A stretch of 64,000 bases of DNA, from contig CAVUSH010000003.1 in NCBI GenBank assembly GCA_963744095.1, positions 625,334 through 689,333 of the forward strand, given 5' to 3'. A program made the translations under genes and the position numbers. A model generated the notes under the pieces. That model had not been told where the DNA came from, made no database searches, and saw nothing but the letters and a program-made list of their open reading frames with translations. This stretch comes from an uncultured Chloroflexia bacterium. GTDB lineage: Bacteria; Chloroflexota; Limnocylindria; Limnocylindrales; CSP1-4. This document shows positions 28,730-42,414 of the stretch, in pieces; within the stretch, counting starts at the first letter, position 1, and the number at the start of each line of letters is the position of its first letter.

Positions 28730-29269
28730 TCACGCCTTGACGATCTCGACCCGGTGTTGGACGTGCGCCGGCTTCGACGCCCCGACGAGCGCCTCGAGCC
28801 GAGCCGCCGGGACGGCCTTCGGGTCCTTCACGCGGACGCGGATGAAGAGGTCCGTCGAGGAGCCCGCCGGAATGGCGGCACCGGCGTCGCGCGACCAGCC
28901 CGCCGCGCCGGGTTCGGCGATCTCGACCTCGCCACCCGTGAAGATGGCCACGTGCGCCGCCAGCCCGGCGGCTGTACCGCGCATCCGGAACAGCTCCGTG
29001 GCGGACGCGACGAACGCCCTGCGCCGTTCGAGCGGCCACGTCTCGTCCGGCGTCGCACCGACCCAGCTCCCGATCCATTCCAGGAAGTCCTCGGGGGCGA
29101 GGGCCGGGTCCAGGTAGGCCGGGAAGCAGTCGAGCACCTGGATTGCCCCGGCCAGGACCTCATCGAACGCCGACGTGAACTGCTGGGTGAAGGCATCGTC
29201 CCGGTAGAGACCGGGGAGATGCTCGCCGATCGGGTGAGGGCTCGCGAGCCCGGGCGGCGTCCCGCGCAC
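28730..29269 (-). CDS. Phage tail protein I-like baseplate wedge subunit
   Basis: LPGLYRDD.F, YLDP..AP.DFL.W, RGT..GL, KPAH. Confidence 0.88.
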   Translation of the reverse strand: MRGTPPGLASPHPIGEHLPGLYRDDAFTQQFTSAFDEVLAGAIQVLDCFPAYLDPALAPEDFLEWIGSWVGATPDETWPLERRRAFVASATELFRMRGTAAGLAAHVAIFTGGEVEIAEPGAAGWSRDAGAAIPAGSSTDLFIRVRVKDPKAVPAARLEALVGASKPAHVQHRVEIVKA

Positions 29270-29271
29270 GG

Positions 29272-31221
29272 TCAGTCCTCCTCGACCATGAGCTGGTGCT
29301 CGTAGCTGAAGACGAGCGCATGGGGCTCCAGGTCGAGGCGCTGTGTTGCCTGGCCCCGCTGCCCTGTGATCGGGTCGGCCCCGAAGAGGCGCACATCCTC
29401 GACCAGCTCGGTCCCCCGCACCCGCTGGAGCACCGAGTAGACCTCGCCGATCTGCACCGGTCGCCCAAATGGCCACCCGGCGCCCTCCGGACCGCCGCTG
29501 ATCGGGTTGAAGTAGGCATACAGTGCTCGCAGGGCGTCCTCCTGGAGGCGACCCGCGGTCACTCGCGGCCGCCTCCGCAGGCGGGCGACGATCGTGATCC
29601 CACGGTAAACCGGCGGCTCGACGATCACCCGCGTCCCAACGACACGCGTCTCATCGAGGCGAGCGGCCACGCGGGCCAGCGTCTCGTCCGACGGGACAAG
29701 CTGCTCGAAGCGAAGGCGCGCATCGACGGCCTGCGCCGCGGGCACCACGAGGACGCGCACGGATCCCGCGTCGGCACCCTCGCCAGCCCCCACGGCGTGG
29801 ACGCGCGCCAGCTCGGGCGCCGCCTCGTGGGAAAGGTGCTCGAAGTCCTCCGTGGTGACGGCGCGCCCGCGGGAACGGAGCGTGATGGGGCCGCGGACCT
29901 TCGCGTTCTCGATCTCCTCCCCGTCGACGCCGCCTGCCATCGGCCGGCGGTTCTCCACGCGGCTCACGTACGGGATGGACGACTTCAGGATGCTGATCGA
30001 CCGCGGCGCGATGTTGCCGAGCCGGCCACCGCCCGTGAGGTAGACGTCGACCTTGATCCGGCGTCCCTTCCCGGGCACCGCCCCGTGGCTCCGCACCGCC
30101 CCGTCCGCCTCGCGGACGGCCGGGCCGAAGGAGATCTCGCCGGCGACGGCATCGAGCACGAAATGCCGATCGTCGGGCCCCGAGCCGGAGAAGTCGGGCA
30201 CCTGCGTCCACTCCAGCCAGCCGTCCTCGTCGTCCGAGACCTGCACGCCGGTGGGCCGATCGCCGGGGACCACCGGTCGTCGTCGCAGGAGGAAGCGCTG
30301 GCCGGCCACGCCCTCGGAGGTGCCGACGATCTCGTCGACGACCACGTCGGCGTGGACGGCGGCGGTCGTGCCACCAACGGTGGAGGCGGCCACGCCGCGC
30401 ACGCTCGGGGATGCGGAGTAGAACGGCTGGCCTTCCTCCGGCGCCGTGACGCGGGCGCGGAGCCACGCGGCGCGGAGCTTCTCGACGACCGAGACCGCGT
30501 GGCCGTTCGGGACGTGGAGGATCACCTCGCCGTCCCGGTTGAGGCCGCCGGTGGCGTCGCGCTCCAGCTCGCAGGGCGTCCAGGCGTCGCCGGTCCAGGC
30601 CTCCCACGCCAAGGGCGGCCAGGTGGGATCGACGCCGACGCCTTCGATCGTGCATCGAAAGTCGAGGCGAACGACGTTGGCGGGCGCCGGCTCGGAGATG
30701 CCGACGAGCAGCAGGTTGCCCGCCACCGGCGGCGCCTCGAAGGCGGCGAAGTCGCGCCCGTTCGTGGCCTCCGTGGTGCGGTCCACGTGCTTCTTGCCAT
30801 CCGGGGTGGTCAGCACGTGGGCGAGCGTCACCGGGACGATCGGGAGGTCGTCGAGCGTCGTGAAGACGACCGCGTCGTCGGTCTCGGTGCGAATCGTCGC
30901 CGCCTGCGTCCCCCCGGCGATGCGGATGGCGTCCGGTTGCGCCGCGGAGAGCCAGAACGTGATCTCGCCGCGGGCCGCCGCCGGCGGGAACAGGCGGACG
31001 CCGATCAGCTCGAGGAACTTGACGTAGTGGCGGTCGGGGACCCGGTTGAGGCGGTACAGGAGCTGGTCGGTCATCCAGGCGAAGGCCTCGATGAGGGTGA
31101 CGCCGGGGTCCGAGACGTTGTGGTCCGTCCACTCCGGGCAGCGCTGCTGGACGAGGCGCTTCGCGTCGTCGACGAGGTCCTGGAAGCGGCGGTCGTCCAG
31201 GTTCGGGACCGGCAGGGCCAT
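29272..31221 (-). CDS. Baseplate J-like assembly protein (Afp11/12-like)
   Basis: MALPVPNLDDRRFQDL, WTDHN.SDPGVTLIE, GG.D.E, RAVT.EDFE, GWPFGR. Confidence 0.92.
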   Translation of the reverse strand: MALPVPNLDDRRFQDLVDDAKRLVQQRCPEWTDHNVSDPGVTLIEAFAWMTDQLLYRLNRVPDRHYVKFLELIGVRLFPPAAARGEITFWLSAAQPDAIRIAGGTQAATIRTETDDAVVFTTLDDLPIVPVTLAHVLTTPDGKKHVDRTTEATNGRDFAAFEAPPVAGNLLLVGISEPAPANVVRLDFRCTIEGVGVDPTWPPLAWEAWTGDAWTPCELERDATGGLNRDGEVILHVPNGHAVSVVEKLRAAWLRARVTAPEEGQPFYSASPSVRGVAASTVGGTTAAVHADVVVDEIVGTSEGVAGQRFLLRRRPVVPGDRPTGVQVSDDEDGWLEWTQVPDFSGSGPDDRHFVLDAVAGEISFGPAVREADGAVRSHGAVPGKGRRIKVDVYLTGGGRLGNIAPRSISILKSSIPYVSRVENRRPMAGGVDGEEIENAKVRGPITLRSRGRAVTTEDFEHLSHEAAPELARVHAVGAGEGADAGSVRVLVVPAAQAVDARLRFEQLVPSDETLARVAARLDETRVVGTRVIVEPPVYRGITIVARLRRRPRVTAGRLQEDALRALYAYFNPISGGPEGAGWPFGRPVQIGEVYSVLQRVRGTELVEDVRLFGADPITGQRGQATQRLDLEPHALVFSYEHQLMVEED

Positions 31222-31224
31222 CGG

Positions 31225-31626
31225 TCAGTCCTCCGCGGGGATCACGTAGAAGGGGAAGACAAGGTTCCGGGGGTCGTTCGACGACCCGACCGTGTAGCGG
31301 ATGTCGATGTAGAGCGTCGAGGCGTCGTCCTCGTCGGGGGCCACGTCGACCTCCTGCACGGCAATGCGGGGCTCCCAGCGGCGCAACGAGGCGCGCACGT
31401 CGGCGGCGATCCGGCCGAACGTCGCGGCATTGGCCGGCGAGAAGACCTCGTCGTGGATCCCGCACCCGAACTCCGGCCGCATGGGCCGCTCGCCGTAGGC
31501 CGTGCCGAGGACCAGGCGGATGCTCTCCTCGATCTCCCGCTCGCGGGTGACCAGGGCGATCCCGCCCGTCGCGTCGGTACGCAGGGGGAAGGCCCACCCG
31601 GCGCCGATGAACTCGTCGTTGACCAT
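31225..31626 (-). CDS. gp25/GpW baseplate protein (Afp9-like)
   Basis: IG.GW.FP, L.T..GERPMRPEFG, WEPRI, NLVFPFY. Confidence 0.93.
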   Translation of the reverse strand: MVNDEFIGAGWAFPLRTDATGGIALVTREREIEESIRLVLGTAYGERPMRPEFGCGIHDEVFSPANAATFGRIAADVRASLRRWEPRIAVQEVDVAPDEDDASTLYIDIRYTVGSSNDPRNLVFPFYVIPAED

Positions 31627-31643: not shown

Positions 31644-33419
31644 CTAACCCAGCTGGACCTGGCTGCCGCTGACCTTGGCGATGCCGCTGGTGCCGACCTC
31701 GACCCCGGCCGAGCCCGTCAGCTTCGCCTGGGCGCTGGACGTGATCTCGACTCCGCCCTCGCCGCTGATCTTGACCTTGCCGGTCGCCTTGATCTCGATG
31801 TCGCTCGTGGCCGTCAGCACGATCTTTCCCTCGGATGTGCCGCTCAGCTTCCTGTCAGTCCGGCTCAGGAGGAGGACCACTTCCTCCGCTGCCGTCTGCA
31901 TGCCCAGCGACGAGTTGCCGGGCTTGTCCCACATGTAGACCTGGTTGCCGTCGCGGCTGACGAAATGGCGCCCGTTGAGCTTCCCGCCGTCCACCTCGAT
32001 CGGCGGCGGCGCGTCGCTGCCGTTCCAGAGGCCACCGACGACGAAGGGGCGCTGGCGGTCGCCGCTCTCGAAGGCGACGAGGACCTCGTCGTTGACCTCG
32101 GGGATCCAGACGGTGCCGCGCGACGCGCCGTTGCCGGGCGCGGCGACCCGGGCCCAGTGGCTCTCGTAGTCGGCCGACAGGGACGGGAAGCGGAGCTTCA
32201 CCCGCCCCAGGCGATCGGGGTCGTCGTTGTCCGTCACGATGCCCACGACCACGCCCGCGGACGAGCCGTTCCCGGCCCCTCCGGCGCCGCCTCCGCCCCC
32301 GCTCGCGCCGCCGGCCGCCGCCCCCGCGACGAGACCCATGAGCGAGCGGTCCTGGCGGCCGCTCACGATGAAATGGGTCCGGTAGCCGTCCTGGGGATCG
32401 TACGTGTGGCGCGTGTGGGTGAGCGTGTAGCGCCCGGCGAACGGCGCGGCGACCTGCGAGACGCTCACGGCCGCGCCGGCCTTCACCCGGGGGTTGCCGC
32501 GGGCGATGCCGGAGGCCTCGGCGAACGCGCTCCCGACCTGCTCGGCAAGCGCCTCCGCCGCCCGGTCGGCCTCGGCCTGCGATGGATAGCCGCCCTCGAC
32601 AACGAGGACCGGGCTGCCGAAGCGCCCGGCAAGGCTCCCTGGGTCGTCGGCGAGCTGGGCGGCCGTCGAGCGCGCCTGGGCCGTCCCCACGATCGCCTGC
32701 TTCGTCGACGGATCCCAGCCGCGGACCTCGACGCGGGAGACCTGGCCCGACGACGTCACCCGGGGCCGGAAGTCGAGGAGATCCTGGCCGAACACCAGCT
32801 GGAGCGGGTCGCTCGAGCTGAAGTCCCCACCCTCGGGCGCCTCTGCCGCCTCTCGGGGCCGCCGGAACTCGAGCTTGCCTTCGACGACAGCAACCTCGAA
32901 GCCGACCTCGCGGGCAAGGCCCCGCAGGAACTCCCAGTCCGTCTGGCCCGTCTGGCCGACGTGCTCGTGGACCCGGCCGCTGTCGTCGATCGTCCCGGCG
33001 CCCAGTCCCACCTGCGACGCGATCGTGCGGGCGATGTCGGAGTACTTGACGTTCTGGAAGGTGGCCGAGCTGCGGCCGCGGGAGAGGCGGTGGGCGTGGT
33101 CGTAGCCGCGCGCCACCAGGAGCGGCGCCTTCCCCTCGCGATAGACGCCCTCGAGCGCGGTCACCTCGCCGCTGACCAGCAGGCTGGGGGTGCCCTCCCC
33201 CATGGCCGACGTGGAGACCTTCACCGCGCTGCCCACGCGCAGACGGGCCGTCTCGGCGACGGTCATGTCGGCGGTCTCCTGGAACGTGAGCTCGAACGTG
33301 TCGGGCTGGTGGAGATGGTCGTCCACGGCAACGCGCACGAGTGCCGTCTCGGCCGCGCCGTCGAGCGGCTGGCCGTCCACCTCGACCTTGATCGCGCTCG
33401 CGAGCGCGGCGTCGGGCAC
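31644..33419 (-). CDS. vgrG: VgrG-like hub-spike (Afp8-like)
   Basis: gp27-like hub (Q..TDWEFL, GWDP..K), OB fold GRVKLRFP/WARV/PEVNDEVLVAF, short beta-helical tail. Confidence 0.9.
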   Translation of the reverse strand: MPDAALASAIKVEVDGQPLDGAAETALVRVAVDDHLHQPDTFELTFQETADMTVAETARLRVGSAVKVSTSAMGEGTPSLLVSGEVTALEGVYREGKAPLLVARGYDHAHRLSRGRSSATFQNVKYSDIARTIASQVGLGAGTIDDSGRVHEHVGQTGQTDWEFLRGLAREVGFEVAVVEGKLEFRRPREAAEAPEGGDFSSSDPLQLVFGQDLLDFRPRVTSSGQVSRVEVRGWDPSTKQAIVGTAQARSTAAQLADDPGSLAGRFGSPVLVVEGGYPSQAEADRAAEALAEQVGSAFAEASGIARGNPRVKAGAAVSVSQVAAPFAGRYTLTHTRHTYDPQDGYRTHFIVSGRQDRSLMGLVAGAAAGGASGGGGGAGGAGNGSSAGVVVGIVTDNDDPDRLGRVKLRFPSLSADYESHWARVAAPGNGASRGTVWIPEVNDEVLVAFESGDRQRPFVVGGLWNGSDAPPPIEVDGGKLNGRHFVSRDGNQVYMWDKPGNSSLGMQTAAEEVVLLLSRTDRKLSGTSEGKIVLTATSDIEIKATGKVKISGEGGVEITSSAQAKLTGSAGVEVGTSGIAKVSGSQVQLG

Positions 33420-33422
33420 CCC

Positions 33423-34124
33423 TCAGCCCTCCCGCGAGGCGAGGCGCCGCGCTTCGTCGGCGGTGGGGACGAGGAGGCGCGTCCCGGCCGCCACGCGGAG
33501 GGGATCGTCGATCTCGTTGAAGGCGGCGATCCCCCGCCAGAGGCTGGCGTCCCCGTACTCGCGCCAGGCGACTGAGTGGAGGCTGTCGCCCGCCCCGACG
33601 AGGTGGCTCCGGCGGCTCTCATGTGATCCGGACGACGGGTTCTGCTTCGGCGAGTCCTCCGGGACTTCCTCGAGGGAGATCGTCGCGCTCGCACGGACCG
33701 GCGTTCCGTCGGGTTTGAAGAGGACGTACTTGGCATTGACGGTCTTGAGGAAGAACCTCAGGTCCGCGAGGATGCGGTTGCTGCCCCATTCGAACCCGAG
33801 GACCGGCGGGCGCGGCAGCTTCTTGGTGATCGACGTGGGCGTCGGCCTGGTCCACCCGAAGAGCGTGGTCACGCTGCGCGTGACGTCGGCGTCGGCCGCG
33901 TCCCAGGCGTCGAACCAGATCTCCATCTGGACGGTCTGGGGGCCGGCGCCCGTGAACTGGGGCTTGCCGGCGGATCCGGCCCCCTTCTGCTGGGGCCGGT
34001 TCCAGTTGGCCGACTTGGCAGTGGTCAGCTCGGCCGGGTTGTACATGAACGTGAGCTCGCGCGTCTCCGGGTCGCCGTCGACGACTCGCAGCTTCGCCTT
34101 CTGGAGCGCGCCGCCGCTGAGCAT
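33423..34124 (-). CDS. CIS tube-initiator with LysM (Afp7-like)
   Basis: FMYNP.EL, F..DGTPVRA, QNPSSG, GDSL..VAW.EYGD...WR.IA..N.IDDP. Confidence 0.9.
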   Translation of the reverse strand: MLSGGALQKAKLRVVDGDPETRELTFMYNPAELTTAKSANWNRPQQKGAGSAGKPQFTGAGPQTVQMEIWFDAWDAADADVTRSVTTLFGWTRPTPTSITKKLPRPPVLGFEWGSNRILADLRFFLKTVNAKYVLFKPDGTPVRASATISLEEVPEDSPKQNPSSGSHESRRSHLVGAGDSLHSVAWREYGDASLWRGIAAFNEIDDPLRVAAGTRLLVPTADEARRLASREG

Positions 34125-34552
34125 CAACGTGCGAACCCGTTGTGGACCAGCTCGAGGACCTCGAGAGCCACGGCGTTCGTCCCCGTGTCGAGGGTCGGTC
34201 CGGACCAGCGGACCGGGTAGATCCCCTGGAGACGCCAGCTGGCGACGGTCTCGCCACCGCCATCGAGCACAGCGATCTCGGCGGTCGACCGCTTCGGATC
34301 GCTGGCCACCGAAGCCAGCCAGGCGGCCACCTTCTGGGTGTCTCGATCGACCGGGCGCGTGAGCTTCAGGTTCTGGTACTTGGCCCGCCCGGGGAACCGG
34401 TGGACGTAGTCGTTGTTGCCGCCCTCCTTCACCTCCTGGACGTCGTACTCGACCGTCAGCCCCTCGCACTTCGTCCACGAGCCGAGGTCGGTCTGGTCGT
34501 CGAGGGTCACCTTGAAGCAGAGGGTCAGGCCGTAGTTCACGCGCTCGGACAT
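34124..34552 (-). CDS. T4 gp19-like tube protein 2 (Afp5-like)
   Basis: CEGL, EGGNN..., L.L.R, P.RWSGP, ELVH.GF. Confidence 0.9.
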   Translation of the reverse strand: MSERVNYGLTLCFKVTLDDQTDLGSWTKCEGLTVEYDVQEVKEGGNNDYVHRFPGRAKYQNLKLTRPVDRDTQKVAAWLASVASDPKRSTAEIAVLDGGGETVASWRLQGIYPVRWSGPTLDTGTNAVALEVLELVHNGFAR

Positions 34553-34556
34553 GACA

Positions 34557-36755
34557 TCACCCGTCGATCAAGAGGCCCATCCGCTCGCGGTCGAGCAGGA
34601 GCTCGGTCGCGAAGCGGGAGCGAATGCGGTCGTAGACGCGGTCGGCGATCTCCTCGTAGTCCTGGCCGGCGCCCCCGGTCCCGGCGTTCCCCGTCCCACC
34701 TTCCATCGGGCCCGCGGCGGGGGCAGCTTCCGCCGCGGCGGCCACCTCGTCCACCACGACCGCTCGCTGGACCACCGCCGGTCCGACGGCGGGCAGCGCC
34801 GCGAAGCCGCCCGCCGCGCTCCAGCCCAGGACGCCGGCCGCGGATGGCGACGCGGAGTCCCCGCCATCGACCAGGCGCGAGACGGCCAGCCGTTCTCCAG
34901 CGGGTCCTGCGGCGTCGCCAGTCCCCCGCCGGCCGACTGCGGGGCGAGCGACGGGCCCCGCGGCCGACCTTCCGCGGCCAGCCGGCGATCCCGGGGCCGG
35001 CGGGGTCGTGGAGGCGCCGAAGGCTGCCCCGGGCCCGAAGTCGGCGACGGCTGCCCCGGGCCCGGAGTCGGCGCCGGCTGCCCCGGCCGTGCGCCCGTCC
35101 CACGCCGCCGGAGTGGCCGGCACGCCGAACCCCGGTCGGAGCGACTCGGCGCCGCGCAGCGAGCGCGCCACGACGAGCGGCACGGACCGCGTGGGTGGGG
35201 CGATGGGCGGGGCCGGGGCGGTGGGCGGGGCCGGATCCGAGGGCGGGGCGGTGAGCTGGGCCGAGGGCCGGATCGGCGGCGGCGGCGCGGCGCGACCGGC
35301 GGAGAGCCCCTCGGGGGCGGTCGAAGCCTGCATGGCCGCGACATCTGGGCGTGGACTCGGGCGCGGGCCCGTGGCGCCACTCCCGGCCGGGCCACTGCCG
35401 GGGACGGCTCCGGGCACGACCTGCCCGCCGTGGTTCCCGCGCCCGCCGATGAGCGGAGATCCCTCGCTCGGCGACGGCCCCGCGGCGGACGCACCGGCGC
35501 GCGCCTCGGCATCGGCCTCGGCATCGGATTCGTCCGCGGAAAGGGCCGCCGCACGACGGCCGATGTCCCCGACGAGCGGGCGCTCGACGCCACGCTGGAC
35601 TTGCGGGACCACCGGGCCGGCAAGGTCGCCGGCGACCTGGGCATCGCCGTCGATCGCCGGGGCCGGGGCCGCGGGCACGTCTTCCGATCGCTGGGCACCG
35701 GGCTCGGGGAGTGCTGCCGGCAGTCCGCGCTCGGCCGCGACCCGAAGGACCGGGAGGGCGGTCTCGGTCGCGGCCGCGCGGCGGGACGCCGGCGGCAGCG
35801 AGGCGGTGACCGGCGCGGTCGGAGGATCGGCCCTGCGGCCCGCGCGGGCGAGGGGGAGGTCGGGCTCGGCAGGGACGCGCTGCACGCTCGGACGGCCGGC
35901 GAGCGGTGCGCCGAGGCCGAAACGGCGCGACGCGCCGAGCGAACGATGCTGGGTCGGCGGCGCCGCCGTGGCCTCGGCGCTCGGTGCGGATGCGGCTGCG
36001 CCGAGGCTGGCTTCGGGACCCGCCGCCCTGGCTCCCGGAGGCGTCGCGGGTGGCTGCGTCGGGCTCGCCGCGCTGCGCTTGACCGGGGAGCCTGCCACGG
36101 CGGGCGCGGCGGCGATCGTGGACGACCCGGCGCCCGAGACCGGGGCGACCGCTCGGGCCGCCTCCGGGGCGGTGGCCGCCGCAACCCGCGTCGCGGCCAG
36201 CGCGGGTATCGCCCCGGATTGCGCCACGATCGGCAGCACGCGCGGCGGCGAGGCGGGCATATCCGCGGAGCCGCCCTCGGTTCGCGCCGGCGGCAGGGCT
36301 TCTGCCGCCGTCCCTTCGATCACGAGGGCCGGCGGCTTCGCATCGGAGACCGCGCGCGCGCGGCGCTGCACCCCGTGGGGTGCCGGCAACGCCCCGTGGC
36401 CGGTCGACGAGGTCACCGCTTGGGCAGGCACGACAAGGGGAGTCGCGATCCCGCTGACGAGCCCGGCGGGACCGTCGGGGGCGACGGCGTGGACGAGCGG
36501 CCGGAGGATCGGATCGGGCGGGCGGGTGCCAGCCAACTCCCGGCCGAAGGGGACCGCCGGGGCCGTCAGGGGCGCTGCGCCAACCGAGCGCTGGATCGGG
36601 GGGAGGCTCCGCCAGGCCGCCGGGCGCGCGGGAATGCCGGCCCCCGGGGCAGCGCCCGCAGCGGTCTCGGGCACGCCCGGGCGGGCCGCGGCGGCGTCCC
36701 CTGCCGGCAGGGCGTCCCGGTCCGCCCGGGAGAACAGCGAGAAGGGCCAGCGCAC
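34557..36755 (-). CDS. Large Pro/Ala-rich CIS protein in the tape-measure gene position
   Basis: N-terminal AW.SLPPIQR/L.HAV.P..P.GLV.G, recurring xQR motifs, C-terminal EEIADRVYDRIR...ELLLDRER.G. Confidence 0.7.
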   Translation of the reverse strand: MRWPFSLFSRADRDALPAGDAAAARPGVPETAAGAAPGAGIPARPAAWRSLPPIQRSVGAAPLTAPAVPFGRELAGTRPPDPILRPLVHAVAPDGPAGLVSGIATPLVVPAQAVTSSTGHGALPAPHGVQRRARAVSDAKPPALVIEGTAAEALPPARTEGGSADMPASPPRVLPIVAQSGAIPALAATRVAAATAPEAARAVAPVSGAGSSTIAAAPAVAGSPVKRSAASPTQPPATPPGARAAGPEASLGAAASAPSAEATAAPPTQHRSLGASRRFGLGAPLAGRPSVQRVPAEPDLPLARAGRRADPPTAPVTASLPPASRRAAATETALPVLRVAAERGLPAALPEPGAQRSEDVPAAPAPAIDGDAQVAGDLAGPVVPQVQRGVERPLVGDIGRRAAALSADESDAEADAEARAGASAAGPSPSEGSPLIGGRGNHGGQVVPGAVPGSGPAGSGATGPRPSPRPDVAAMQASTAPEGLSAGRAAPPPPIRPSAQLTAPPSDPAPPTAPAPPIAPPTRSVPLVVARSLRGAESLRPGFGVPATPAAWDGRTAGAAGADSGPGAAVADFGPGAAFGASTTPPAPGSPAGRGRSAAGPVARPAVGRRGTGDAAGPAGERLAVSRLVDGGDSASPSAAGVLGWSAAGGFAALPAVGPAVVQRAVVVDEVAAAAEAAPAAGPMEGGTGNAGTGGAGQDYEEIADRVYDRIRSRFATELLLDRERMGLLIDG

Positions 36756-36762
36756 GACGAGA

Positions 36763-36921
36763 TCACTCCCCTTCGGTCAGACGCTGGTTGATCCGGGCGA
36801 TCTCCTCGACGAACCGCAGCCGGTCCGGGTGCTCGAGGTCGAGAATCGCGTCCATGGACCAGTGCAGGTGGTAGGCGACGTACGCAACCTCCTCGAAGAG
36901 ACGGTCGGCCGCGTACGTCAC
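36763..36921 (-). CDS. DUF6760-like small protein (candidate frameshift extension of the chaperone)
   Basis: L.EEVAYVAYHLHWS.D.IL.LEH.DR...V.EI..IN. Confidence 0.8.
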   Translation of the reverse strand: MTYAADRLFEEVAYVAYHLHWSMDAILDLEHPDRLRFVEEIARINQRLTEGE

Positions 36922-36944
36922 GACCCCCCCGGCGCCGCGCCTCC
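36877..36944 (-). other. Candidate programmed -1 ribosomal frameshift cassette
   Basis: Minus strand: GGAGG (36944-36940), 9 nt, G7 (36930-36924), 4 nt, then a hairpin with a perfect 9-bp stem (36919-36911 / 36885-36877). The downstream ORF is in the -1 frame. Confidence 0.6.
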
Positions 36945-37355
36945 GATCTCCACGGTGAACGCGTGGCTGCACGCCGGGCAGGTCACCGCTGCCTGGGACG
37001 TGCCCTCCTGGTTCACCCGGCGGTAGAGGTCCTGGAGAAAGGCGAGATCGGAGGCGAACATGCCCTCGACGACCTGCGGGGTCACCTGGACGAGGCTGCC
37101 GAGCCGGACGACCACGCGGGAGAGGAGGATCACCGTGAGGTAGGCCTCGTTCTCCCGGACCCGCGGATCACGGAGCGGGAGGATCTCGTCGCGGGCCGTC
37201 GCCAGGCGCATGGACCCCTCGCGGTGGAGGGCGCCCGCCTCGTCGACGTAGCCGCGCGGCAGGACGAACGGGAACTCGGTCCGCAGGCCCCCCGAGGCGG
37301 AGCCGGACGGGCCGCCGGTGGCGGCTGCCGGCCCCGCGATCAGGTCCAGGGCCAT
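36918..37355 (-). CDS. Tail assembly chaperone-like protein with C-terminal CxxC
   Basis: TEF.F.LPRGYVD..G..H..G.MRLATARDE, DL.FLQDLY, CPAC. Directly follows the tube gene. Confidence 0.8.
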   Translation of the reverse strand: MALDLIAGPAAATGGPSGSASGGLRTEFPFVLPRGYVDEAGALHREGSMRLATARDEILPLRDPRVRENEAYLTVILLSRVVVRLGSLVQVTPQVVEGMFASDLAFLQDLYRRVNQEGTSQAAVTCPACSHAFTVEIGGAAPGGS

Positions 37356-37356
37356 C

Positions 37357-37815
37357 TCACTTCACCCGCTCGAGCCGCTCGCAGACGATCGTGACCTCCT
37401 CGACGGCCGGGGCGTTGTCGCCGGCCTTCATCCCCGACGCGGTGAGCTTGGAGACCCACGCGTCGAAGAAGTTGTACCGGGCGACCTCGCCGTAGATGAA
37501 GTCGAGCTGGACGATGGAGCCGTTCTTGCGAGCGCCGATCAGGTCTCCCTCGAGGGCGGCCTTGTGCCAGTTCCACAGGTCCATGGACGAGTCGGCGGCG
37601 CGCTTGAGGGTGATCGTCGGCGGCTTCGTCGCCCCGATCATCTTCTTGAGGATCGGCTTGCCGAGGGCGTCGTTGGCCTTCAGCTCCACCACCTCGATCT
37701 CCGAGGTGATACCGCCCACCTCCTGGAACGACGCGATGGCCGTCCCGTCGACCTGGATGAGGAAGCGCTGCGCGACGAGCGTGTCGAGCGGCAGCGAGGG
37801 GACTCCGGTTGGCAT
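37357..37815 (-). CDS. T4 gp19-like major tube protein (Afp1-like)
   Basis: F.EV.G, ITLKR, W.W, RKNGSI, EEVTI..E. Confidence 0.92.
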   Translation of the reverse strand: MPTGVPSLPLDTLVAQRFLIQVDGTAIASFQEVGGITSEIEVVELKANDALGKPILKKMIGATKPPTITLKRAADSSMDLWNWHKAALEGDLIGARKNGSIVQLDFIYGEVARYNFFDAWVSKLTASGMKAGDNAPAVEEVTIVCERLERVK

Positions 37816-37862: not shown

Positions 37863-39380
37863 TCACTCGCTGAGTGACGTGCCGCCCGAGAACTGGGCAA
37901 GGCGGAAGATCACGAACTCCGCCGGCTTGACCGGGGCGATCCCGATCTCGACGATGAGCTGCCCCGCGTCGATCGTCTCGGCCGTGTTGTTCTCCCCGTC
38001 GCACTTCACGAAGAAGGCCTCCGCCGGGGTCGATCCGAAGAGGGCGCCGTCGCGCCAGGTCCGGACGAGGAAGGCCCCGATCGTCCGCTTCACCCGCTCC
38101 CAGAGGTCGATGTCGTTCGGCTCGAAGACGACCCATTGGGTGCCGAGGAGGATCGACTCCTCGAGGTAGTTGAACAGGCGGCGCACGTTGAGGTAGCGCC
38201 ACGCCGGGTCGGAGGAGAGCGTCCGGGCGCCCCAGACGCGGATCCCGCGGCCGGGGAAGGTGCGCACGCAGTTGATCCCGATCGGGTTGAGCTGGTCGTG
38301 CTCGGCCCGGGTCAGGTTGAGCTCCAGGGCGATCGCCCCGCGGACGACCTCGTTCGCCGGCGCCTTGTGGACGCCGCGCTCGCCGTCGTTGCGGGCCCAG
38401 ATGCCGGAGATGTGGCCGGACGGGGGCACGAAGGTCGCCTGGCCGGCAACCGGGTCGAAGACCTTGATCCAGGGCCAGTAGAGGGTGGCGTACTTCGAGT
38501 CGTAGCCGGCCTTGTCCTGGCGCCACTCCTTGACCTGCTGGGCGTTGTAGTCGGGCGGCGTGTCGAGGATGGCGACGCGGTCACCCATCAGCTCGCAGTG
38601 GGCGATGATCGCCAGCTGGACGGCCTTGAGCCCGTCCATGTCCACGACGCCGGCCTGGTAGAGCGCCATCAGGTCGGGCGCGGCCACCATCGTGATCTCC
38701 TCGACGGCCTCGAGGCCGCCGAAGCCGGTCCGGTCCGCCGAGTTCCCGACGTACTCGTCCGGGGTCACCCGGACCGGCCCGCTGACGGTGCCGCCGGCCA
38801 GGGCCGACTTCGTCCCGACGGCCGGGGCAACCTCGCCCTTGGCGACCTCCTCGAGGCGGACGAGCTTCGAGGCCTTCACCGCGGTGAAGACACTCTGCTT
38901 GCCGCGCTTGACCGTGACGTTGTCGTAGACCTCCTGCTCGGAGCCGCGGGACACCGTCAGCTTGAAGACGCCCTCGCCGGGCTCGGACGGCTCCCCGACC
39001 TCGACCGCGATCTCGTTGCCCGCGCCACCGGCCTCGAGGGCCACGACGCGGAAGGCCGCCTGCGACTTGTCCGTGGAGCTGGGGAGCTCAAGGCGGGCGC
39101 TCGGCGCGCCGGCGCCATCGGCGCCGATCCGGACGATGTACGCCGTCGTGCCGCCGTTGAGGAAGAAGCCGTAGACCGAGTGCGCGAGATAGGACCCCTC
39201 CATGAAGTCGCCGAACGAGGCGACGAACTGGCTCCAGTTCGTGACCATCACCGGCGTGTTGGCGGGGCCGCGCTGGGCGAGCCCCACGAAGGCCGCGACG
39301 GCCGTGCCCACGCCCTCGATGGGGCGAGAGGCGGCCTGCACCTCCTCGACGTAGACGCCGGGCGAAAGGTAGTTCGGCAT
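37863..39380 (-). CDS. Contractile tail sheath
   Basis: Y.SPGVYVEE, AAFVG, YWPWI, PPSG, GVHKAPAN, WGARTL, YLNVRR, FEPN, APVKPAEFV.F. Confidence 0.96.
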   Translation of the reverse strand: MPNYLSPGVYVEEVQAASRPIEGVGTAVAAFVGLAQRGPANTPVMVTNWSQFVASFGDFMEGSYLAHSVYGFFLNGGTTAYIVRIGADGAGAPSARLELPSSTDKSQAAFRVVALEAGGAGNEIAVEVGEPSEPGEGVFKLTVSRGSEQEVYDNVTVKRGKQSVFTAVKASKLVRLEEVAKGEVAPAVGTKSALAGGTVSGPVRVTPDEYVGNSADRTGFGGLEAVEEITMVAAPDLMALYQAGVVDMDGLKAVQLAIIAHCELMGDRVAILDTPPDYNAQQVKEWRQDKAGYDSKYATLYWPWIKVFDPVAGQATFVPPSGHISGIWARNDGERGVHKAPANEVVRGAIALELNLTRAEHDQLNPIGINCVRTFPGRGIRVWGARTLSSDPAWRYLNVRRLFNYLEESILLGTQWVVFEPNDIDLWERVKRTIGAFLVRTWRDGALFGSTPAEAFFVKCDGENNTAETIDAGQLIVEIGIAPVKPAEFVIFRLAQFSGGTSLSE

Positions 39381-39462
39381 GCGGATCGGCCCTCCGGGCG
39401 ATGCAGCTTGGAAGCAGTCCGAGCGTGGACCGCCGCCGCCGCACCGGCAACGGACGTCCGGA

Positions 39463-39520
39463 CAGCCGAACGGGCGGGTCGCGCTGCCCGATCAGGCAGA
39501 CGGTGGCGCCCGATCGGCTG
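39463..39520. promoter_or_regulatory. Three 14-bp boxes in 22-bp phase in the divergent sheath/cap promoter
   Basis: cagccgaacgggcg (39463), tgcccgatcaggca (39485), cgcccgatcggctg (39507). The outer boxes are inverted copies of each other with one mismatch. Confidence 0.6.
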
Positions 39521-39570
39521 CCCTCCGGCGGCTTGCCCGCGCGGACGCCCCCGGGGACGCTGGGCGGGCG

Positions 39571-40314
39571 ATGATCCAGGACGTCGACGAGACCCTGCGC
39601 GCGCTCGTCAAGCGCGAAGCCCTCAACGGGAGCCAGGTCGAGATCGCCTTCGACGCCCCGACCCGTGACTGGTCGGCGCGGCGCAATGCGCCAACGATCA
39701 ACCTCTACCTCTACGACATTCGCGAGGACATGACCCGACGCGACGCGGCCATGGCCCCGGTCCGCTCCGATGAGGGGTACGTTGCCGGCCACTCCCCCAT
39801 CCCCCGTCGCTACAAGCTGTCGTACCTCCTGACGGCCTGGACGCAGCGCCCCGAGGACGAGCACCGCCTCCTGGCGGCCTGCCTGGGCGCACTCATCCGG
39901 TACGACGTCCTGGCCCCGGCGGACATGCACGGCGCCCTCGCCGAGCAGCCGATCCCCGCCCTCGTGACCGTCGCCCTCCCGCTCGGGCCGGACCGCTCCA
40001 TCGCGGACATCTGGTCGGCGATGGGCGGCGAGATGAAGCCGTCGCTCGACGTCGTCGTCACGGTCCCGTTCGTGGTGAGTCGGGAGGTGGCGGCCGGCGC
40101 GCCGGTGCGCGAGATGCCGCGCATCTCGATCCTGGGACCCGACGGCGCGGACGGCCCGCGGATCACCCGGGCTCGGGTACGGCGAGGCCCGTCGGGGGCC
40201 CGCACCGGGCCGCTCCGCCCCGACGAGCCCATCGCCCAGGACGAGACGGTCGTCGGCGGCACGCCGGAGATTCCAGGCCGCCTGTTCCGGGTGCGCGGCC
40301 ACCCGCGTCCCTGA
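39571..40314 (+). CDS. CIS cap/terminator protein (Pvc16/Afp16, DUF4255-like)
   Basis: FDAP, NLYLYDIRED, LSYLLTAW, EH.LL, W.A.G...KPSL. Confidence 0.88.
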   Translation: MIQDVDETLRALVKREALNGSQVEIAFDAPTRDWSARRNAPTINLYLYDIREDMTRRDAAMAPVRSDEGYVAGHSPIPRRYKLSYLLTAWTQRPEDEHRLLAACLGALIRYDVLAPADMHGALAEQPIPALVTVALPLGPDRSIADIWSAMGGEMKPSLDVVVTVPFVVSREVAAGAPVREMPRISILGPDGADGPRITRARVRRGPSGARTGPLRPDEPIAQDETVVGGTPEIPGRLFRVRGHPRP

Positions 40315-40320
40315 CCTTCG

Positions 40321-42414
40321 ATGGTTCTCGCCGTCCCCACCGACGCGTCGGCTCGCCACCTTGCCGGCCGCCTGGGCCTCGTGGCCGACCGCGTCCAGCT
40401 CGCCGTGGACCGGCGGCGGATGGGCGACCCGGACCCGGACGACCAATTCCGCGGCCTTTACGTCTCCGACGCCCAGGTCGACCACCTGCTCGGCGGGGGG
40501 CACGGGCCGCTCCTGCTAGCGGACGCCGACGGCGCAGCGGCGGAGCGCCGCGCGGCGGTCGAGGCCAGGGCGGACGCCGCAGAGGCGGCCGGCGAGGAGG
40601 TGCGGCTGCGCCGGCTGGCGCGCAGCTTCGCCCTGGAATCCCTCGACGTGGAGCTCCTTCTCGTGGCCCTGGCGCCCGATCTCGACCCCCGGTTCGAGCG
40701 CCTCTATGGCTACCTCCACGACGATGTCTCGCGGCGACGGGCGAGCGTCGGTCTCGCCCTCGAGCTGTCCGGCGTAGGCGAGGGGTCCGGGACCGGTCGG
40801 GCCCGGCTCGGCCCGCTCGCTCCGCTGGTTGCGGGTGGGCTCCTCGTGGTGGAGGACGGCGACCGACCCTTCCTGACCCGCGCCCTGCGCGTTCCCGACC
40901 GCGTCGCGGCCCACCTGCTGGGTGACGCAGCGCCCGACCCCGCGGTGGAGGCCCTCGCCACGATCGCCGCAGCCCACGACGCGGCCGGGACCGACGCGCT
41001 CGAGGGCGGCCTGCGCGCTGGTGCCCGCCTCGCCTACGTGCGGGAGCGGATCGGCACCGCCGCGGTGACGCTCGCCGCGCGCGCGCTCGGACGCGTGGGG
41101 CCTCCGCCGGTGGTGGTGGACCTCGGACGGCTCGTCCCGGGCGATGATCCCCGCGAGGCCGCGGCCGCGGCGATCCGGGAGGCGCGGCTCCGCGGGACCG
41201 GCCTCGTGGCCGGACCCCTCGACGTCGTCGCGGAACGCGGGCCGGGGGCCGTCCGCGCCTGGGCGGAGGCGGCCTGCCCGGTCGTCCTCCACGGGTCGCG
41301 CGGCTGGGACCCCGGCTGGTCGCGGTCGGTGCCGTTCATCCTGGACCCGGACCTCCCGTCCGCCGCCGAGCGGCGGGCCGTCTGGCTGGCCTCGCTGGAC
41401 GGAGCCGCGTCGGCGGACCTGGGGGCAGCCGTGGCCGCGCTTCCCTTCCGCCTTGCCCCCGAGGCCGTCGCCCGTGCCGCCGAGGCCGGTCGCCTTGCCG
41501 CCGCGGCGGCGGGCCGCGACCTGGGCGTGAGGGACATCGCCGCGGGCGCCCGGGCCCAGAACGCGGCCGGCCTGGAGCGCCTGGCCCGGCGCCTCGAGCC
41601 GCGGGTCACCTGGACCGACCTGGTCCTTCCGTCCGGCGTCCTGGAGCAGCTTCGCGAGCTGACCGGCCGGGCCCGCCATCGCGACCTGGTCCTCGACGAA
41701 TGGGGCCTGGCCCGGACGTCGCTCAAGGGCCGCGGGGTCACGGCCCTCTTCGCCGGCGACTCCGGGACGGGCAAGACCATGTCAGCCGAGGTCATCGCGG
41801 GCTCTCTCGGGCTCGACCTGTACGTCATCGACCTCTCCACGATCGTCGACAAGTACATCGGCGAGACGGAGAAGAATCTCGACCGCGTCTTCACCGAGGC
41901 CGACCGGGTGAACGGCGTCCTCCTCTTCGACGAGGCTGACGCGATCTTCGGCAAGCGCTCGGAGGTCAAGGACGCCCGGGATCGCTACGCCAACGTGGAG
42001 GTCGCCTACCTCCTCCAGCGGATGGAGCAGTTCGACGGGATGGCGATCCTCACGACGAACCTGCGGGCAAACGTCGACGAGGCGTTCCTTCGCCGGCTCG
42101 ACGCCATTGTCGACTTCCCCCTTCCGGAGATCGACGACCGACGCCGCCTCTGGGAGCGCAACCTCGCGGCCGGCGCCCCGAAGGCGGATGACATCGACGT
42201 GGACTTCCTGGCCCGCCGCTTCGCGCTCTCGGGGGGCAACATCCGCAACGTCGCCGTCGGAGCGGCATTCCTCGCCGCCGAGGCGGGGCGGTCGCTGAAC
42301 ATGGAGCATCTCGTCCGGGAGACCGCCCGCGAGTACCGCAAGCTGGGGCGCCTGTGCGTCGAGGCCGAGTTCGGGCCGTACTTCCCGCTGGTTGCGAACG
42401 TGGCCGGAGGCTGA
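40321..42414 (+). CDS. CIS AAA+ ATPase (Afp15/Pvc15-like)
   Basis: LYGYLHDD N-domain, GDSGTGKT, KYIGETEKNL, FDEAD, DRYAN.E..YLLQR.E. Confidence 0.93.
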   Translation: MVLAVPTDASARHLAGRLGLVADRVQLAVDRRRMGDPDPDDQFRGLYVSDAQVDHLLGGGHGPLLLADADGAAAERRAAVEARADAAEAAGEEVRLRRLARSFALESLDVELLLVALAPDLDPRFERLYGYLHDDVSRRRASVGLALELSGVGEGSGTGRARLGPLAPLVAGGLLVVEDGDRPFLTRALRVPDRVAAHLLGDAAPDPAVEALATIAAAHDAAGTDALEGGLRAGARLAYVRERIGTAAVTLAARALGRVGPPPVVVDLGRLVPGDDPREAAAAAIREARLRGTGLVAGPLDVVAERGPGAVRAWAEAACPVVLHGSRGWDPGWSRSVPFILDPDLPSAAERRAVWLASLDGAASADLGAAVAALPFRLAPEAVARAAEAGRLAAAAAGRDLGVRDIAAGARAQNAAGLERLARRLEPRVTWTDLVLPSGVLEQLRELTGRARHRDLVLDEWGLARTSLKGRGVTALFAGDSGTGKTMSAEVIAGSLGLDLYVIDLSTIVDKYIGETEKNLDRVFTEADRVNGVLLFDEADAIFGKRSEVKDARDRYANVEVAYLLQRMEQFDGMAILTTNLRANVDEAFLRRLDAIVDFPLPEIDDRRRLWERNLAAGAPKADDIDVDFLARRFALSGGNIRNVAVGAAFLAAEAGRSLNMEHLVRETAREYRKLGRLCVEAEFGPYFPLVANVAGG

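What the first reader, a model, noticed from the sequence alone, without database searches (positions are those of the whole stretch)
36763..37355. Candidate programmed -1 frameshift fusing the CIS tail chaperone to DUF6760
Seen on the minus strand: the chaperone ends CCG GGG GGG TCG TGA (slippery G GGG GGG). An internal GGAGG sits 9 nt upstream, and a hairpin (perfect 9-bp GACGTACGC/GCGTACGTC, extendable by G-U pairs) starts 4 nt downstream. DUF6760 lies in the -1 frame without a properly spaced SD. Established: long-tailed phages make gpG/gpGT chaperone pairs by frameshifting just upstream of the tape-measure gene, and SD plus slippery site plus hairpin is the dnaX/IS-type -1 architecture. 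Inference: the CIS makes a 145-aa chaperone and an approximately 197-aa fusion, so DUF6760 would be the gpT equivalent. I am not aware of this being shown for eCIS.
Basis: partly seen in the sequence, partly recalled or inferred. Interest (0 to 1): 0.85.

Follow-up and report, generated by a model that had tools for sequence, protein, structure and literature searches.

The report
Conserved frameshift in injection-system tail chaperone
A phage-tail-like injection machine in this bacterium very probably makes two versions of its tail-assembly chaperone by a programmed ribosome slip, as phage P2 does, and this gives the unexplained DUF6760 protein family a role.

Summary
On the minus strand a 145-aa gene ends CCG GGG GGG TCG TGA, DUF6760 lies in the -1 frame, and a 15-bp hairpin follows (-31 kcal/mol, z -4.84).

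It is conserved. Of 132 distinct related loci, 127 carry a run of at least 5 G in the same phase (NNG GGG G..), one or two codons before the stop. The heptamers are GGGGGAA (80), GGGGGGG (26) and GGGGGGA (20). In 28 of 126 loci, including 4 of 9 genomes of the window's own genus, DUF6760 has no ATG/GTG/TTG. Rare codons that build the slip site and the hairpin are fixed. The 7 loci without the G run have their own start and no hairpin.

DUF6760 is a remote homologue of phage P2 E', the -1 frameshift extension of chaperone E (hhalign 88%, E 3e-6). All 30 chaperones scanned match PHROG 508 (tail assembly chaperone). Gene order matches P2 FI-FII-E-E'-T-U-D. GGGGGAA is reported as a common chaperone slip site in actinobacteriophages.

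Verdict: a real -1 frameshift, probability about 0.8, giving 145-aa and 197-aa products. It is a new member of a known kind. I found no report of it for contractile injection systems. The upstream GGAGG is not conserved. Coupled initiation at GTG may coexist.

The parts
36918..37355 (-). Tail-assembly-chaperone-like gene, 0 frame, 145 aa (short product).
   Evidence: ORF and translation. PHROG 508 'tail assembly chaperone' E 4.6e-5. 30 of 30 aligned relatives match PHROG 508. No Pfam family over cut-off.
36924..36930 (-). Slippery heptamer G GGG GGG (last G of CCG plus two GGG codons).
   Evidence: In-phase NNG GGG G.. in 126 of 132 distinct loci by script, plus L044 by eye.
36918..36920 (-). 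0-frame stop TGA, two codons after the first GGG. It overlaps GTG 36919-36921 of the -1 frame.
   Evidence: The stop lies 1 or 2 codons after the GGG codon in 126 of 126 loci.
36875..36921 (-). Downstream stem-loop: 15-bp stem including G-U pairs. The perfect 9-bp core is 36911-36919 with 36877-36885.
   Evidence: -31 kcal/mol, z -4.84. Counts of pairing across relatives.
36763..36921 (-). DUF6760 / P2 E'-like module in the -1 frame, 52 aa from the GTG. In the fusion it is entered from codon GTC at 36922-36924.
   Evidence: Pfam PF20546 E 4.5e-14. hhalign to P2 E' 88.7% and to an E' alignment of 7 phages 88.2%.
36763..37355 (-). Predicted trans-frame product of 197 aa (residues 1-144 of the chaperone, then V, then the 52 aa of DUF6760).
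   Evidence: Inference. No protein data.
36940..36944 (-). GGAGG 9 nt upstream of the heptamer. It encodes Gly-Gly and is probably incidental.
   Evidence: GGAGG is present in only 6 of 125 loci.
37357..37815 (-). Tail tube gene (gp19 family), directly upstream.
   Evidence: PF06841 E 1.5e-26.
37863..39380 (-). Tail sheath gene.
   Evidence: PF04984 and PF17482.
34557..36755 (-). 732-aa Ala/Pro/Gly-rich gene directly downstream, in the position of P2 gpT. Tape-measure identity is unproven.
   Evidence: No family in Pfam, PHROGs or NCBIfam. Translation. P2 gene order.
33423..34478 (-). CIS tube-initiator-like gene (Afp7 / P2 gpU position).
   Evidence: PF19266 E 1e-22; weak PF06995 GpU.
31644..33419 (-). 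Spike (VgrG / P2 gpD-like).
   Evidence: PF04717 and PF05954.
28730..31626 (-). Baseplate genes: gp25-like 31225-31626, Baseplate_J 29272-31221, Tail_P2_I 28730-29476.
39379..42414 (+). Divergent Pvc16_N (Cis16, 39379-40314) and AAA ATPase (Cis15-like, 40321-42414). These are hallmarks of an extracellular-type contractile injection system.

Best explanation
The locus is a contractile injection system (CIS) whose sheath-tube-chaperone-extension-long gene-initiator-spike block is colinear with phage P2 FI-FII-E-E'-T-U-D.

Proposed mechanism:
- Most ribosomes translating the chaperone gene terminate at TGA and release the 145-aa chaperone.
- A fraction slip one base back on G GGG GGG (GGGGGAA or GGGGGGA in relatives).
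- The slip happens while the nearby stop and the stem-loop starting 2-4 nt downstream hold the ribosome.
- These ribosomes continue in the -1 frame through DUF6760 and give a 197-aa chaperone-E'-like fusion.

By analogy with lambda G/GT and P2 E/E+E', the short form would coat the long downstream protein. The rarer long form would dock that complex to the growing tail through the E'-like module.

Shown here: the sequence anatomy, its conservation, codon and structure signals, and the homologies.
Inferred: the slip itself, its rate, and the roles of the two products.
For: 1. Conservation.
- The chaperone was found in 44 of 201 genomes of the window's family.
- DUF6760 was found in 34 of 401 genomes of its phylum.
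- A species-wide scan found 596 relatives, of which the best 80 were kept.
- DUF6760 is in the -1 frame in 28 of 30, 30 of 30 and 79 of 80 loci.

2. Slip site.
- Of 132 distinct loci, 126 have NNG GGG G.. within 6 codons of the stop, and L044 has it further upstream.
- The preceding codon varies over nine codons (CTG, CCG, TCG, ATG, ACG, GTG, GCG, CAG, TTG), and all end in G.

3. No start codon.
- 28 of 126 loci have no ATG/GTG/TTG between the slip site and the conserved Tyr.
- This holds for 15 of 17 in the 'GYP' class and 13 of 109 in the window's 'TYA' class.
- In the window's own genus 4 of 9 genomes (L004-L007) have CTG instead.
- In 11 of these 28 loci the -1 frame is closed within 30 nt upstream of the slip site.

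4. Codon choice.
- The codon after the slip codon is GAA, never GAG, in 71 of 71 Glu cases (background GAA 16%).
- Thr is ACG in 108 of 108 (background 39%) and Ala is GCG in 108 of 108 (background 42%) in the stem arms.
- In the other class Val is GTA in 15 of 17 (background 10%) and Pro is CCC in 15 of 17 (background 19%).

5. Hairpin.
- Window: -31 kcal/mol, z -4.84.
- Named stems are paired in 92% of cells (104 sequences) and 88% (17 sequences). Double-sided changes exceed shuffles: 9 against 2.2, with 0 of 500 shuffles reaching it; and 4 pairs, with 5 of 500.
- Native stems are about 7 kcal/mol (TYA class) and about 6 kcal/mol (GYP class) more stable than synonymous recodings (z -1.8 and -2.1).
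- The two classes use different arm sequences at the same distance.
- Loci with the run have a median of -26.6 kcal/mol (n=140). Loci without it have -15.2 (n=7).

6. Homology.
- DUF6760 profile against P2 E': 88.7%, E 2.5e-6.
- Against an alignment of E' from 7 P2-like phages: 88.2%, E 3e-6. The invariant A..A...HW(P)...W residues coincide.
- Three unrelated small P2 proteins give 0.1-0.2%.
- 5 of 18 DUF6760 members hit PF06528 below cut-off.
- The P2 record annotates E+E' as a -1 frameshift product just before gene T.
- Chaperones match PHROG 508 in 30 of 30 cases.

7. Known slip site. The PRFect paper (PMC10885494, passages read) states that GGGGGAA is the only sequence of its 'fivetwo' motif, across about a thousand motifs in the SEA-PHAGES data. 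It explains the re-pairing through G:U pairs.
Against: - 98 of 126 loci, the window among them, have GTG or ATG exactly at the stop overlap. Nine loci use the rare Ser codon TCA or CGA to make ATG. The G run lies 4 nt before that codon, like a Shine-Dalgarno. A hairpin that starts at a start codon is also typical of translational coupling.
- Seven loci make DUF6760 as a separate gene with its own start and no G run: L032, L110, L132 and L151, L156, L158, L159. The module therefore can work unfused. An eighth locus, L154, also has its own ATG and no hairpin but keeps an in-phase GGG GGC.
- Covariation is modest. The 9-bp core never varies in the window's class.
- RNAalifold's own consensus for the 17 GYP-class sequences is a different structure, with a covariation term near 0. 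For the TYA class it recovers 7 pairs of the named stem in register, but at low energy.
- No natural fusion of about 197 aa appears among the 120 best of 7972 chaperone relatives.
- hhalign of the chaperone profile against P2 gpE itself found nothing. Pfam PF10109 is hit only below cut-off, in 5 of 30 members.
- There are no protein or ribosome data.
- All counts are over related, non-independent sequences.
Confidence: 0.82

Rival explanations
1. Two ordinary overlapping genes. DUF6760 is made only by termination-reinitiation at the GTGA overlap. The G run serves as its Shine-Dalgarno. The hairpin blocks independent initiation, so that only ribosomes finishing the chaperone can start.
For: GTG or ATG sits at the overlap in 98 of 126 loci. 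ATG is made with rare codons in 9 loci. The G run lies 4 nt upstream of the GTG. Separate-gene lineages exist with ATGA overlaps.
Against: - 28 of 126 loci have no start codon, including 4 of 9 in the window's genus and 15 of 17 in the GYP class. All of them keep the G run and most keep a hairpin.
- The run always begins at a third codon position, and the next codon is GAA, never GAG. A Shine-Dalgarno does not need this.
- The homologous P2 E' is annotated as made by a -1 shift.
- The separate-gene lineages have lost both the run and the hairpin.
Confidence: 0.1
2. Both routes operate in the window's class: a -1 shift gives the fusion, and coupled initiation at GTG gives some free DUF6760.
For: The slip signals and a start codon coexist in 98 of 126 loci. 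Free-standing DUF6760 is functional in other lineages.
Against: Close relatives swap GTG for CTG through a synonymous TCG/TCC change in the chaperone frame. This suggests the start is not under selection. No data on products.
Confidence: 0.3
3. RNA polymerase slips on the G run and adds one G to part of the transcripts, so the fusion comes from an edited mRNA and not from ribosome slippage.
For: It is a homopolymer run. One genome (L024) carries an in-frame form with one extra base.
Against: - 80 of 126 loci have only 5 G. From recall, this is shorter than the runs known to cause transcriptional slippage.
- Heptamer phase, the GAA rule and the downstream hairpin are ribosomal features.
- Metatranscriptome contigs of relatives from two studies cross the site without an indel. 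This is weak, because contigs hide minor forms and RNA libraries can hold DNA.
Confidence: 0.03
4. Artefact or decaying gene: a homopolymer sequencing error or a real frameshift mutation split one gene.
For: Three loci differ by one base at or beside the run: L023 and L068 have one G fewer, and L024 is in frame.
Against: The same out-of-frame layout, with a stop 1-2 codons after the run, occurs in 127 of 132 distinct loci from several phyla, complete genomes included.
Confidence: 0.01

Closest known systems
Phage P2 tail genes E and E+E' (-1 programmed frameshift just upstream of tape-measure gene T)
   Same: Gene order sheath-tube-chaperone-extension-long gene-gpU-like-gpD-like. The extension lies in the -1 frame and starts near the 3' end of the chaperone. 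DUF6760 is a remote homologue of E'.
   Different: The host machine is a CIS with Pvc16_N and an AAA ATPase, not a phage. There is no match in 50,697 phage records. The chaperone is longer (145 against 91 aa), has a C-terminal CxxC beta-hairpin, and belongs to another PHROG (508 against 103). The slip site is a G run; I recall that P2 uses a T run. The downstream gene matches no tape-measure family.
Lambda gpG/gpGT and the conserved tail-assembly-chaperone frameshift of long-tailed phages (Xu, Hendrix and Duda 2004; recalled, not read here)
   Same: Two products share an N-terminus, are set by a -1 shift and are encoded between the tube and the long tail-lumen protein.
   Different: No sequence relation was tested. 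The roles of the two products are only inferred here.
Actinobacteriophage chaperone frameshifts on GGGGGAA (SEA-PHAGES annotations, as described in PMC10885494)
   Same: The heptamer is identical in 80 of 126 loci, and the organisms are also GC-rich.
   Different: These loci are cellular CIS clusters. The window itself has GGGGGGG.
Cis6 / Afp6 / Pvc6 spike plug (DUF5908)
   Same: A small helical protein of about 55 aa, encoded between the tube and the initiator genes. DUF5908 was not found in the window's genome or in 301 genomes of its phylum. There is a shared short RWVE-like motif at the same position.
   Different: Profile comparison gives only 8-9.5% probability. The DUF6760 profile finds no solved chain. 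Afp6 is a separate gene with no chaperone upstream.
dnaX / IS3-type -1 frameshift cassettes (Shine-Dalgarno, heptamer, hairpin)
   Same: A heptamer plus a downstream stem-loop.
   Different: The upstream Shine-Dalgarno element is not conserved here (6 of 125). No Rfam family matches.

Membership tests
Programmed -1 ribosomal frameshift cassette | Slippery heptamer X XXY YYZ in the phase of the upstream frame | tested here: met
   G GGG GGG in the window. In phase in 126 of 132 loci, plus L044.
Programmed -1 ribosomal frameshift cassette | Stable structure a few bases downstream, kept across relatives | tested here: met
   (z -4.84). (92% and 88% paired). (more stable than synonymous recodings). 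(absent where the run is absent). Caveat: RNAalifold prefers another fold for one class.
Programmed -1 ribosomal frameshift cassette | Compensatory base changes in the stem | tested here: inconclusive
   9 double-change cells against 2.2 in shuffles. 4 pairs, reached by 5 of 500 shuffles. The core pairs are invariant, and the RNAalifold covariation terms are near 0.
Programmed -1 ribosomal frameshift cassette | Downstream frame has no initiation of its own | tested here: inconclusive
   Met in 28 of 126 relatives. Not met in the window, which has GTG at the overlap.
Programmed -1 ribosomal frameshift cassette | Trans-frame protein observed | not testable with these tools
   No proteomic or ribosome-profiling data were at hand. 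Supplementary tables of the CIS papers were closed.
Phage tail assembly chaperone pair (P2 E / E+E' type) | Upstream gene is a tail assembly chaperone | tested here: met
   PHROG 508 matched by 30 of 30. PF10109 is hit only below cut-off in 5 of 30. hhalign against P2 gpE is negative.
Phage tail assembly chaperone pair (P2 E / E+E' type) | Extension homologous to E' (PF06528) | tested here: met
   hhalign 88.7% and 88.2%, with controls at 0.1-0.2%. The Pfam model itself is hit only below cut-off in 5 of 18. This is remote homology, not family membership by Pfam's threshold.
Phage tail assembly chaperone pair (P2 E / E+E' type) | Lies between the tube gene and the tape-measure gene | tested here: inconclusive
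   The tube gene upstream is confirmed. The downstream 732-aa gene has no tape-measure family match.
DUF6760 (PF20546) | Score over Pfam's gathering cut-off | tested here: met
   52.7 bits against a cut-off of 27.
Extracellular-type contractile injection system | Sheath, tube, CIS_tube initiator, spike, gp25, Baseplate_J, Pvc16_N cap and AAA ATPase in one cluster | tested here: met
   Release from the cell or cytoplasmic action is not testable here.
Cis6/Afp6 spike plug (DUF5908, PF19265) | Sequence relation to DUF5908 | tested here: not met
   hhalign 9.5% and 8.1%. No PF19265 hit in the locus.

The most novel reading that the evidence does not exclude
The E'-like DUF6760 module may be the counterpart, in this CIS lineage, of the Cis6/Afp6 spike plug. 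Delivered as the frameshift tail of the chaperone, it would seat in the spike or tube-initiator cavity and tether the chaperone-coated, disordered 732-aa lumen protein there. Frameshift efficiency would then set how much lumen cargo each particle loads. Lineages that split the module into a separate gene (L151, L156, L158, L159) would be steps towards the free-standing plug of Afp and PVC.
Probability: 0.1. Interest if true: 0.8.

Novelty: new member of a known kind. Interest (0 to 1): 0.62.

Why it matters
- Contractile injection systems are being engineered as protein-delivery devices. Yet the two small genes between the tube and the baseplate in the actinobacterial and Chloroflexota-type clusters are listed as unknown.
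- If the shift is real, these clusters encode a third, unannotated protein of about 197 aa. Any clean deletion, tagging or heterologous expression of either gene would disturb it.
- DUF6760 gets a function: the P2 E' or gpT-like module.
- The finding shows that a viral recoding signal survived domestication across several phyla.
- The separate-gene lineages offer a natural experiment on why phages keep the fusion.
- Gene callers will go on mis-starting DUF6760 until the slippage is annotated.

Tried and rejected
- AlphaFold2 of the chaperone with a 30-row alignment gave mean pLDDT 58.7. This is too poor for a fold search, so none was run.
- Complex prediction of the tube protein with DUF6760 returned 'no answer' (score 0.00). 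It is not evidence either way.
- The DUF6760 and chaperone profiles found no solved structure.
- PF10109 in 251 genomes of the phylum gave one sub-threshold hit, so no gpE alignment could be built that way.
- hhalign of the chaperone profile against P2 gpE was negative.
- The link to the Cis6/Afp6 plug was tested and not supported.
- A search for fused forms gave 33 proteins of 255 aa or more. All are singletons on single contigs and are likely assembly read-throughs. There was no 197-aa form in the top 120.
- Rfam found no family.
- RNA evidence consists of contigs of relatives only. Two bridge the junction without gaps. This shows presence in RNA libraries, and says nothing on rare slippage or on translation.
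Proteomic tables of PMC10066040, PMC11126660 and PMC13277306 might list these proteins or a junction peptide, and I could not see them.
- Papers. 'DUF6760' occurs in 0 papers. Searches combining contractile injection, frameshift and chaperone terms listed only unrelated papers. The word 'frameshift' occurs 0 times in PMC8894136, PMC12210884, PMC12546770, PMC10066040, PMC11126660, PMC13277306 and PMC6899500 (find mode, passages only).
- Rows dropped:
  - L023, L024 and L068 (frame anomalies) were left out of alignment A2.
  - L039 (unpublished genome G418) was left out of A3, but it is counted.
  - L147 (unpublished G730) and L149 (a duplicate of L064) were left out.
Removing L039 changes the totals by one.
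- One search printed a spacer of 3 nt for the TYA class because my anchor was one base off. Reading one search gives 4 nt to the 9-bp core.
Full report
**What is there.**
On the minus strand the window carries a contractile-injection-system cluster.
- Genes: sheath (37863-39380), gp19-type tube (37357-37815), a 145-aa gene (36918-37355), DUF6760 (36763-36921), a 732-aa Ala/Pro-rich gene (34557-36755), a CIS_tube initiator (33423-34478), a VgrG-like spike (31644-33419), gp25, Baseplate_J and Tail_P2_I.
- Divergently, on the plus strand, lie a Pvc16_N cap protein (39379-40314) and an AAA ATPase (40321-42414).
- Neither small protein matches any of 50,697 phage records. This is therefore a cellular injection system and not a prophage tail.

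**The observation.**
- One search shows ...CCG GGG GGG TCG TGA, with seven G at 36924-36930. GTG overlaps the stop (GTGA). GGAGG lies 9 nt upstream. The arms GACGTACGC and GCGTACGTC start 4 nt after the run.
- The stretch folds into a 15-bp stem of -31 kcal/mol, z -4.84, with 0 of 200 shuffles as stable.
- Searches give the two frames. A -1 slip yields ...APGGVVTYAADR... and a 197-aa product.

**Conservation.** I collected relatives in four ways.
- The chaperone occurs in 44 of 201 genomes of the window's family (30 loci).
- DUF6760 occurs in 34 of 401 genomes of its phylum (30 loci).
- A scan of one genome per species found 596 relatives, of which the best 80 were kept. By their record titles they come from Actinomycetota, Chloroflexota, Dormibacterota and one Verrucomicrobia bin.
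- DUF6760 occurs in 17 of 351 genomes of the phylum of the Amycolatopsis genome behind L064. Of its 20 loci, 18 were read.
- DUF6760 lies in the -1 frame in 28 of 30, 30 of 30 and 79 of 80 loci.
- After removing duplicates there are 132 distinct loci.
  - 126 have NNG GGG G.. within six codons of the chaperone stop. L044 has it with a later stop.
  - L023 and L068 have one G fewer. L024 has one base more and is in frame. These are single-base differences of the kind that homopolymer errors produce.
  - L032, L110 and L132 have no run.
- The heptamers are GGGGGAA (80), GGGGGGG (26) and GGGGGGA (20).
- The codon before the run takes nine forms encoding eight amino acids, and always ends in G.

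**Is DUF6760 simply a coupled gene?** This is the serious rival, because 98 of 126 loci have GTG or ATG at the overlap and the G run could serve as a ribosome-binding site. Four results speak against it as the sole route.
- First, 28 of 126 loci have no ATG, GTG or TTG between the run and the conserved Tyr. This holds for 15 of 17 loci in the divergent 'GYP' class, where the stop is TAG or TAA embedded in codons such as GTA GCT. It also holds for 13 of 109 loci in the window's class, where a synonymous TCG to TCC change turns GTG into CTG. Four of the nine genomes of the window's own genus are of this kind.
- Second, codon choice is fixed against the genomic bias.
  - The codon after the slip codon is GAA in 71 of 71 Glu cases (background 16%).
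  - The stem arms use ACG in 108 of 108 cases (background 39%) and GCG in 108 of 108 (background 42%).
  - In the other class they use GTA in 15 of 17 (background 10%) and CCC in 15 of 17 (background 19%).
- Third, the two classes build a hairpin at the same distance from different sequences: ACGTACGC with GCGTACGT, against GGCTACC with GGTAGCC plus an inner CCTCG with CGAGG.
- Fourth, the hairpin goes with the run. The median is -26.6 kcal/mol in 140 loci with the run, and -15.2 in the 7 without it. Those 7 have their own start and, in L110, a GGAGGG at the right distance.

**The structure evidence has limits.**
- The named stems are paired in 92% and 88% of cells, and double-sided changes exceed shuffles.
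- Native stems beat synonymous recodings by about 7 kcal/mol (TYA class) and about 6 kcal/mol (GYP class).
- However, the 9-bp core never varies in the window's class.
- RNAalifold's own consensus for the GYP class is a different fold that pairs the G run with the downstream C run. For the TYA class it recovers only part of the stem.
- All sequences are related, so none of these numbers is a probability.

**What the parts are.**
- The decisive comparison is with phage P2. Its record lists FI (sheath), FII (tube), E, E+E' ('-1 frameshift'), T (tape measure), U and D. This is the same order as in the window.
- The DUF6760 profile aligns with P2 E' at 88.7% probability, E 2.5e-6.
- It aligns with an alignment of E' from seven P2-like phages at 88.2%, E 3e-6. 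The invariant residues of both families fall in the same columns: A..A...HW(P)...W.
- Three other small P2 proteins score 0.1-0.2%.
- Five of 18 DUF6760 members touch Pfam's Phage_P2_GpE model below cut-off.
- The upstream protein matches PHROG 508, 'tail assembly chaperone', in 30 of 30 relatives (best E 1.1e-9). One relative is named 'Phage tail assembly chaperone protein, E...' by UniRef.
- It is not in P2 gpE's own PHROG, and hhalign to gpE is negative. It is therefore a chaperone of a sister family.
- The heptamer GGGGGAA is, according to the PRFect paper, the single sequence of a motif class seen about a thousand times in the SEA-PHAGES data, with re-pairing through G:U pairs (PMC10885494, passages).

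**Mechanism proposed.**
- Ribosomes reach the G run with a stop one or two codons ahead and the stem at the entrance of the mRNA channel.
- The Gly tRNA on GGG, and the tRNA on the next GGG, GGA or GAA codon, re-pair one base back.
- Translation then continues into the E'-like module.
- The short chaperone would coat the long downstream protein, and the rare fusion would dock it.
- The roles are inferred from lambda G/GT and P2 E/E+E' (recalled). The downstream 732-aa protein is disordered and matches no tape-measure family, so its identity is by position only.

**Variation worth noting.**
- In the Actinomycetota sample, 13 of 18 loci are of the frameshift type and 5 are separate-gene forms.
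- In four of the separate-gene forms (L151, L156, L158, L159) a chaperone homologue with a long low-complexity tail ends R[IV]EEV.... It overlaps an ATG- or GTG-started DUF6760, with no run and no hairpin.
- The fifth, L154, is cut upstream, so only that tail is seen. It also keeps an in-phase GGG GGC.
- The module therefore can act unfused, and free DUF6760 may also be made in the window. I give that coexistence 0.3.

**Known or new.**
- The chaperone frameshift is textbook for tailed phages. This is a new member of that kind and not a new mechanism.
- I found no mention of it for contractile injection systems. 'DUF6760' occurs in no paper of the library. Three combined searches listed nothing relevant.
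- Seven CIS papers contain the word 'frameshift' zero times. One of them notes unexplained subtype-specific genes in lineage II (PMC6899500, passages).
- The small Cis6/Afp6 spike plug is a different family (DUF5908). It shows only a weak motif resemblance.

**Verdict.**
- Unproven: the shift rate, the products and their partners.
- Interest is moderate to high for the CIS field, because it adds an unannotated protein to widely studied clusters and explains a DUF.

Noticed in passing
L151, L154, L156, L158, L159: A lineage in which DUF6760 is a separate gene. In L151, L156, L158 and L159 the upstream chaperone homologue has a long Ala/Pro/Glu-rich C-terminal tail in place of the CxxC hairpin. 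The tail ends in a conserved R[IV]EEV..RS motif and overlaps the start of DUF6760 (ATGA). L154 is cut upstream, so only the tail is seen.
   Followed up: partly
window 34557-36755 (-): The 732-aa protein is almost entirely Ala/Pro/Gly-rich and probably disordered. It ends in a short charged helix-like motif (YEEIADRVYDRIRSRF...). It matches no family, and L024 shows a related N-terminus.
   Followed up: partly
L166, L167, L168, L170: Several P2-like phage records annotate E' as a free-standing 39-43-aa 'GpE family' gene without the frameshift. This is the same annotation habit that produced DUF6760 as a stand-alone family.
   Followed up: no
L023, L068, L024: There are single-base differences at or beside the G run. 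Two loci have one G fewer (chaperone frame runs on, +1 relation). One has an extra base that fuses chaperone and DUF6760 in frame, and its DUF6760 also runs into the next gene. These are probably assembly errors, but they could be natural phase variants.
   Followed up: partly
L061-L140 record titles: DUF6760 sequences 75-92% identical to the window's occur in records titled as Chloroflexota bins and as Actinomycetota isolates (Amycolatopsis, Micromonospora, Agromyces). This suggests transfer of the whole cluster between phyla.
   Followed up: no
window 26268-27974 and 27638-28615 (-): Two zinc-ribbon (DZR-type) proteins are encoded just beyond the baseplate genes. They are possible cargo or accessory genes.
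   Followed up: no
Afp6 (L164:15542-15706) against DUF6760 residues 34-43: A short shared RWVE-like motif lies at the same position in both ~55-aa proteins and resembles W-R-E in P2 E'. The probability is only 8-9.5%.
   Followed up: yes
window 36600-37500: Metatranscriptome contigs of relatives from two studies (X15 record 9, X16 record 18) cover the chaperone-DUF6760 junction as one piece with no gaps.
   Followed up: partly
alignments A2 and A3, columns of the G run: RNAalifold pairs the G run itself with a C-rich stretch downstream (CCCC of the Tyr-Pro codons, or CC.CC of Tyr-His). This alternative fold could mask the slip site on untranslated mRNA.
   Followed up: no
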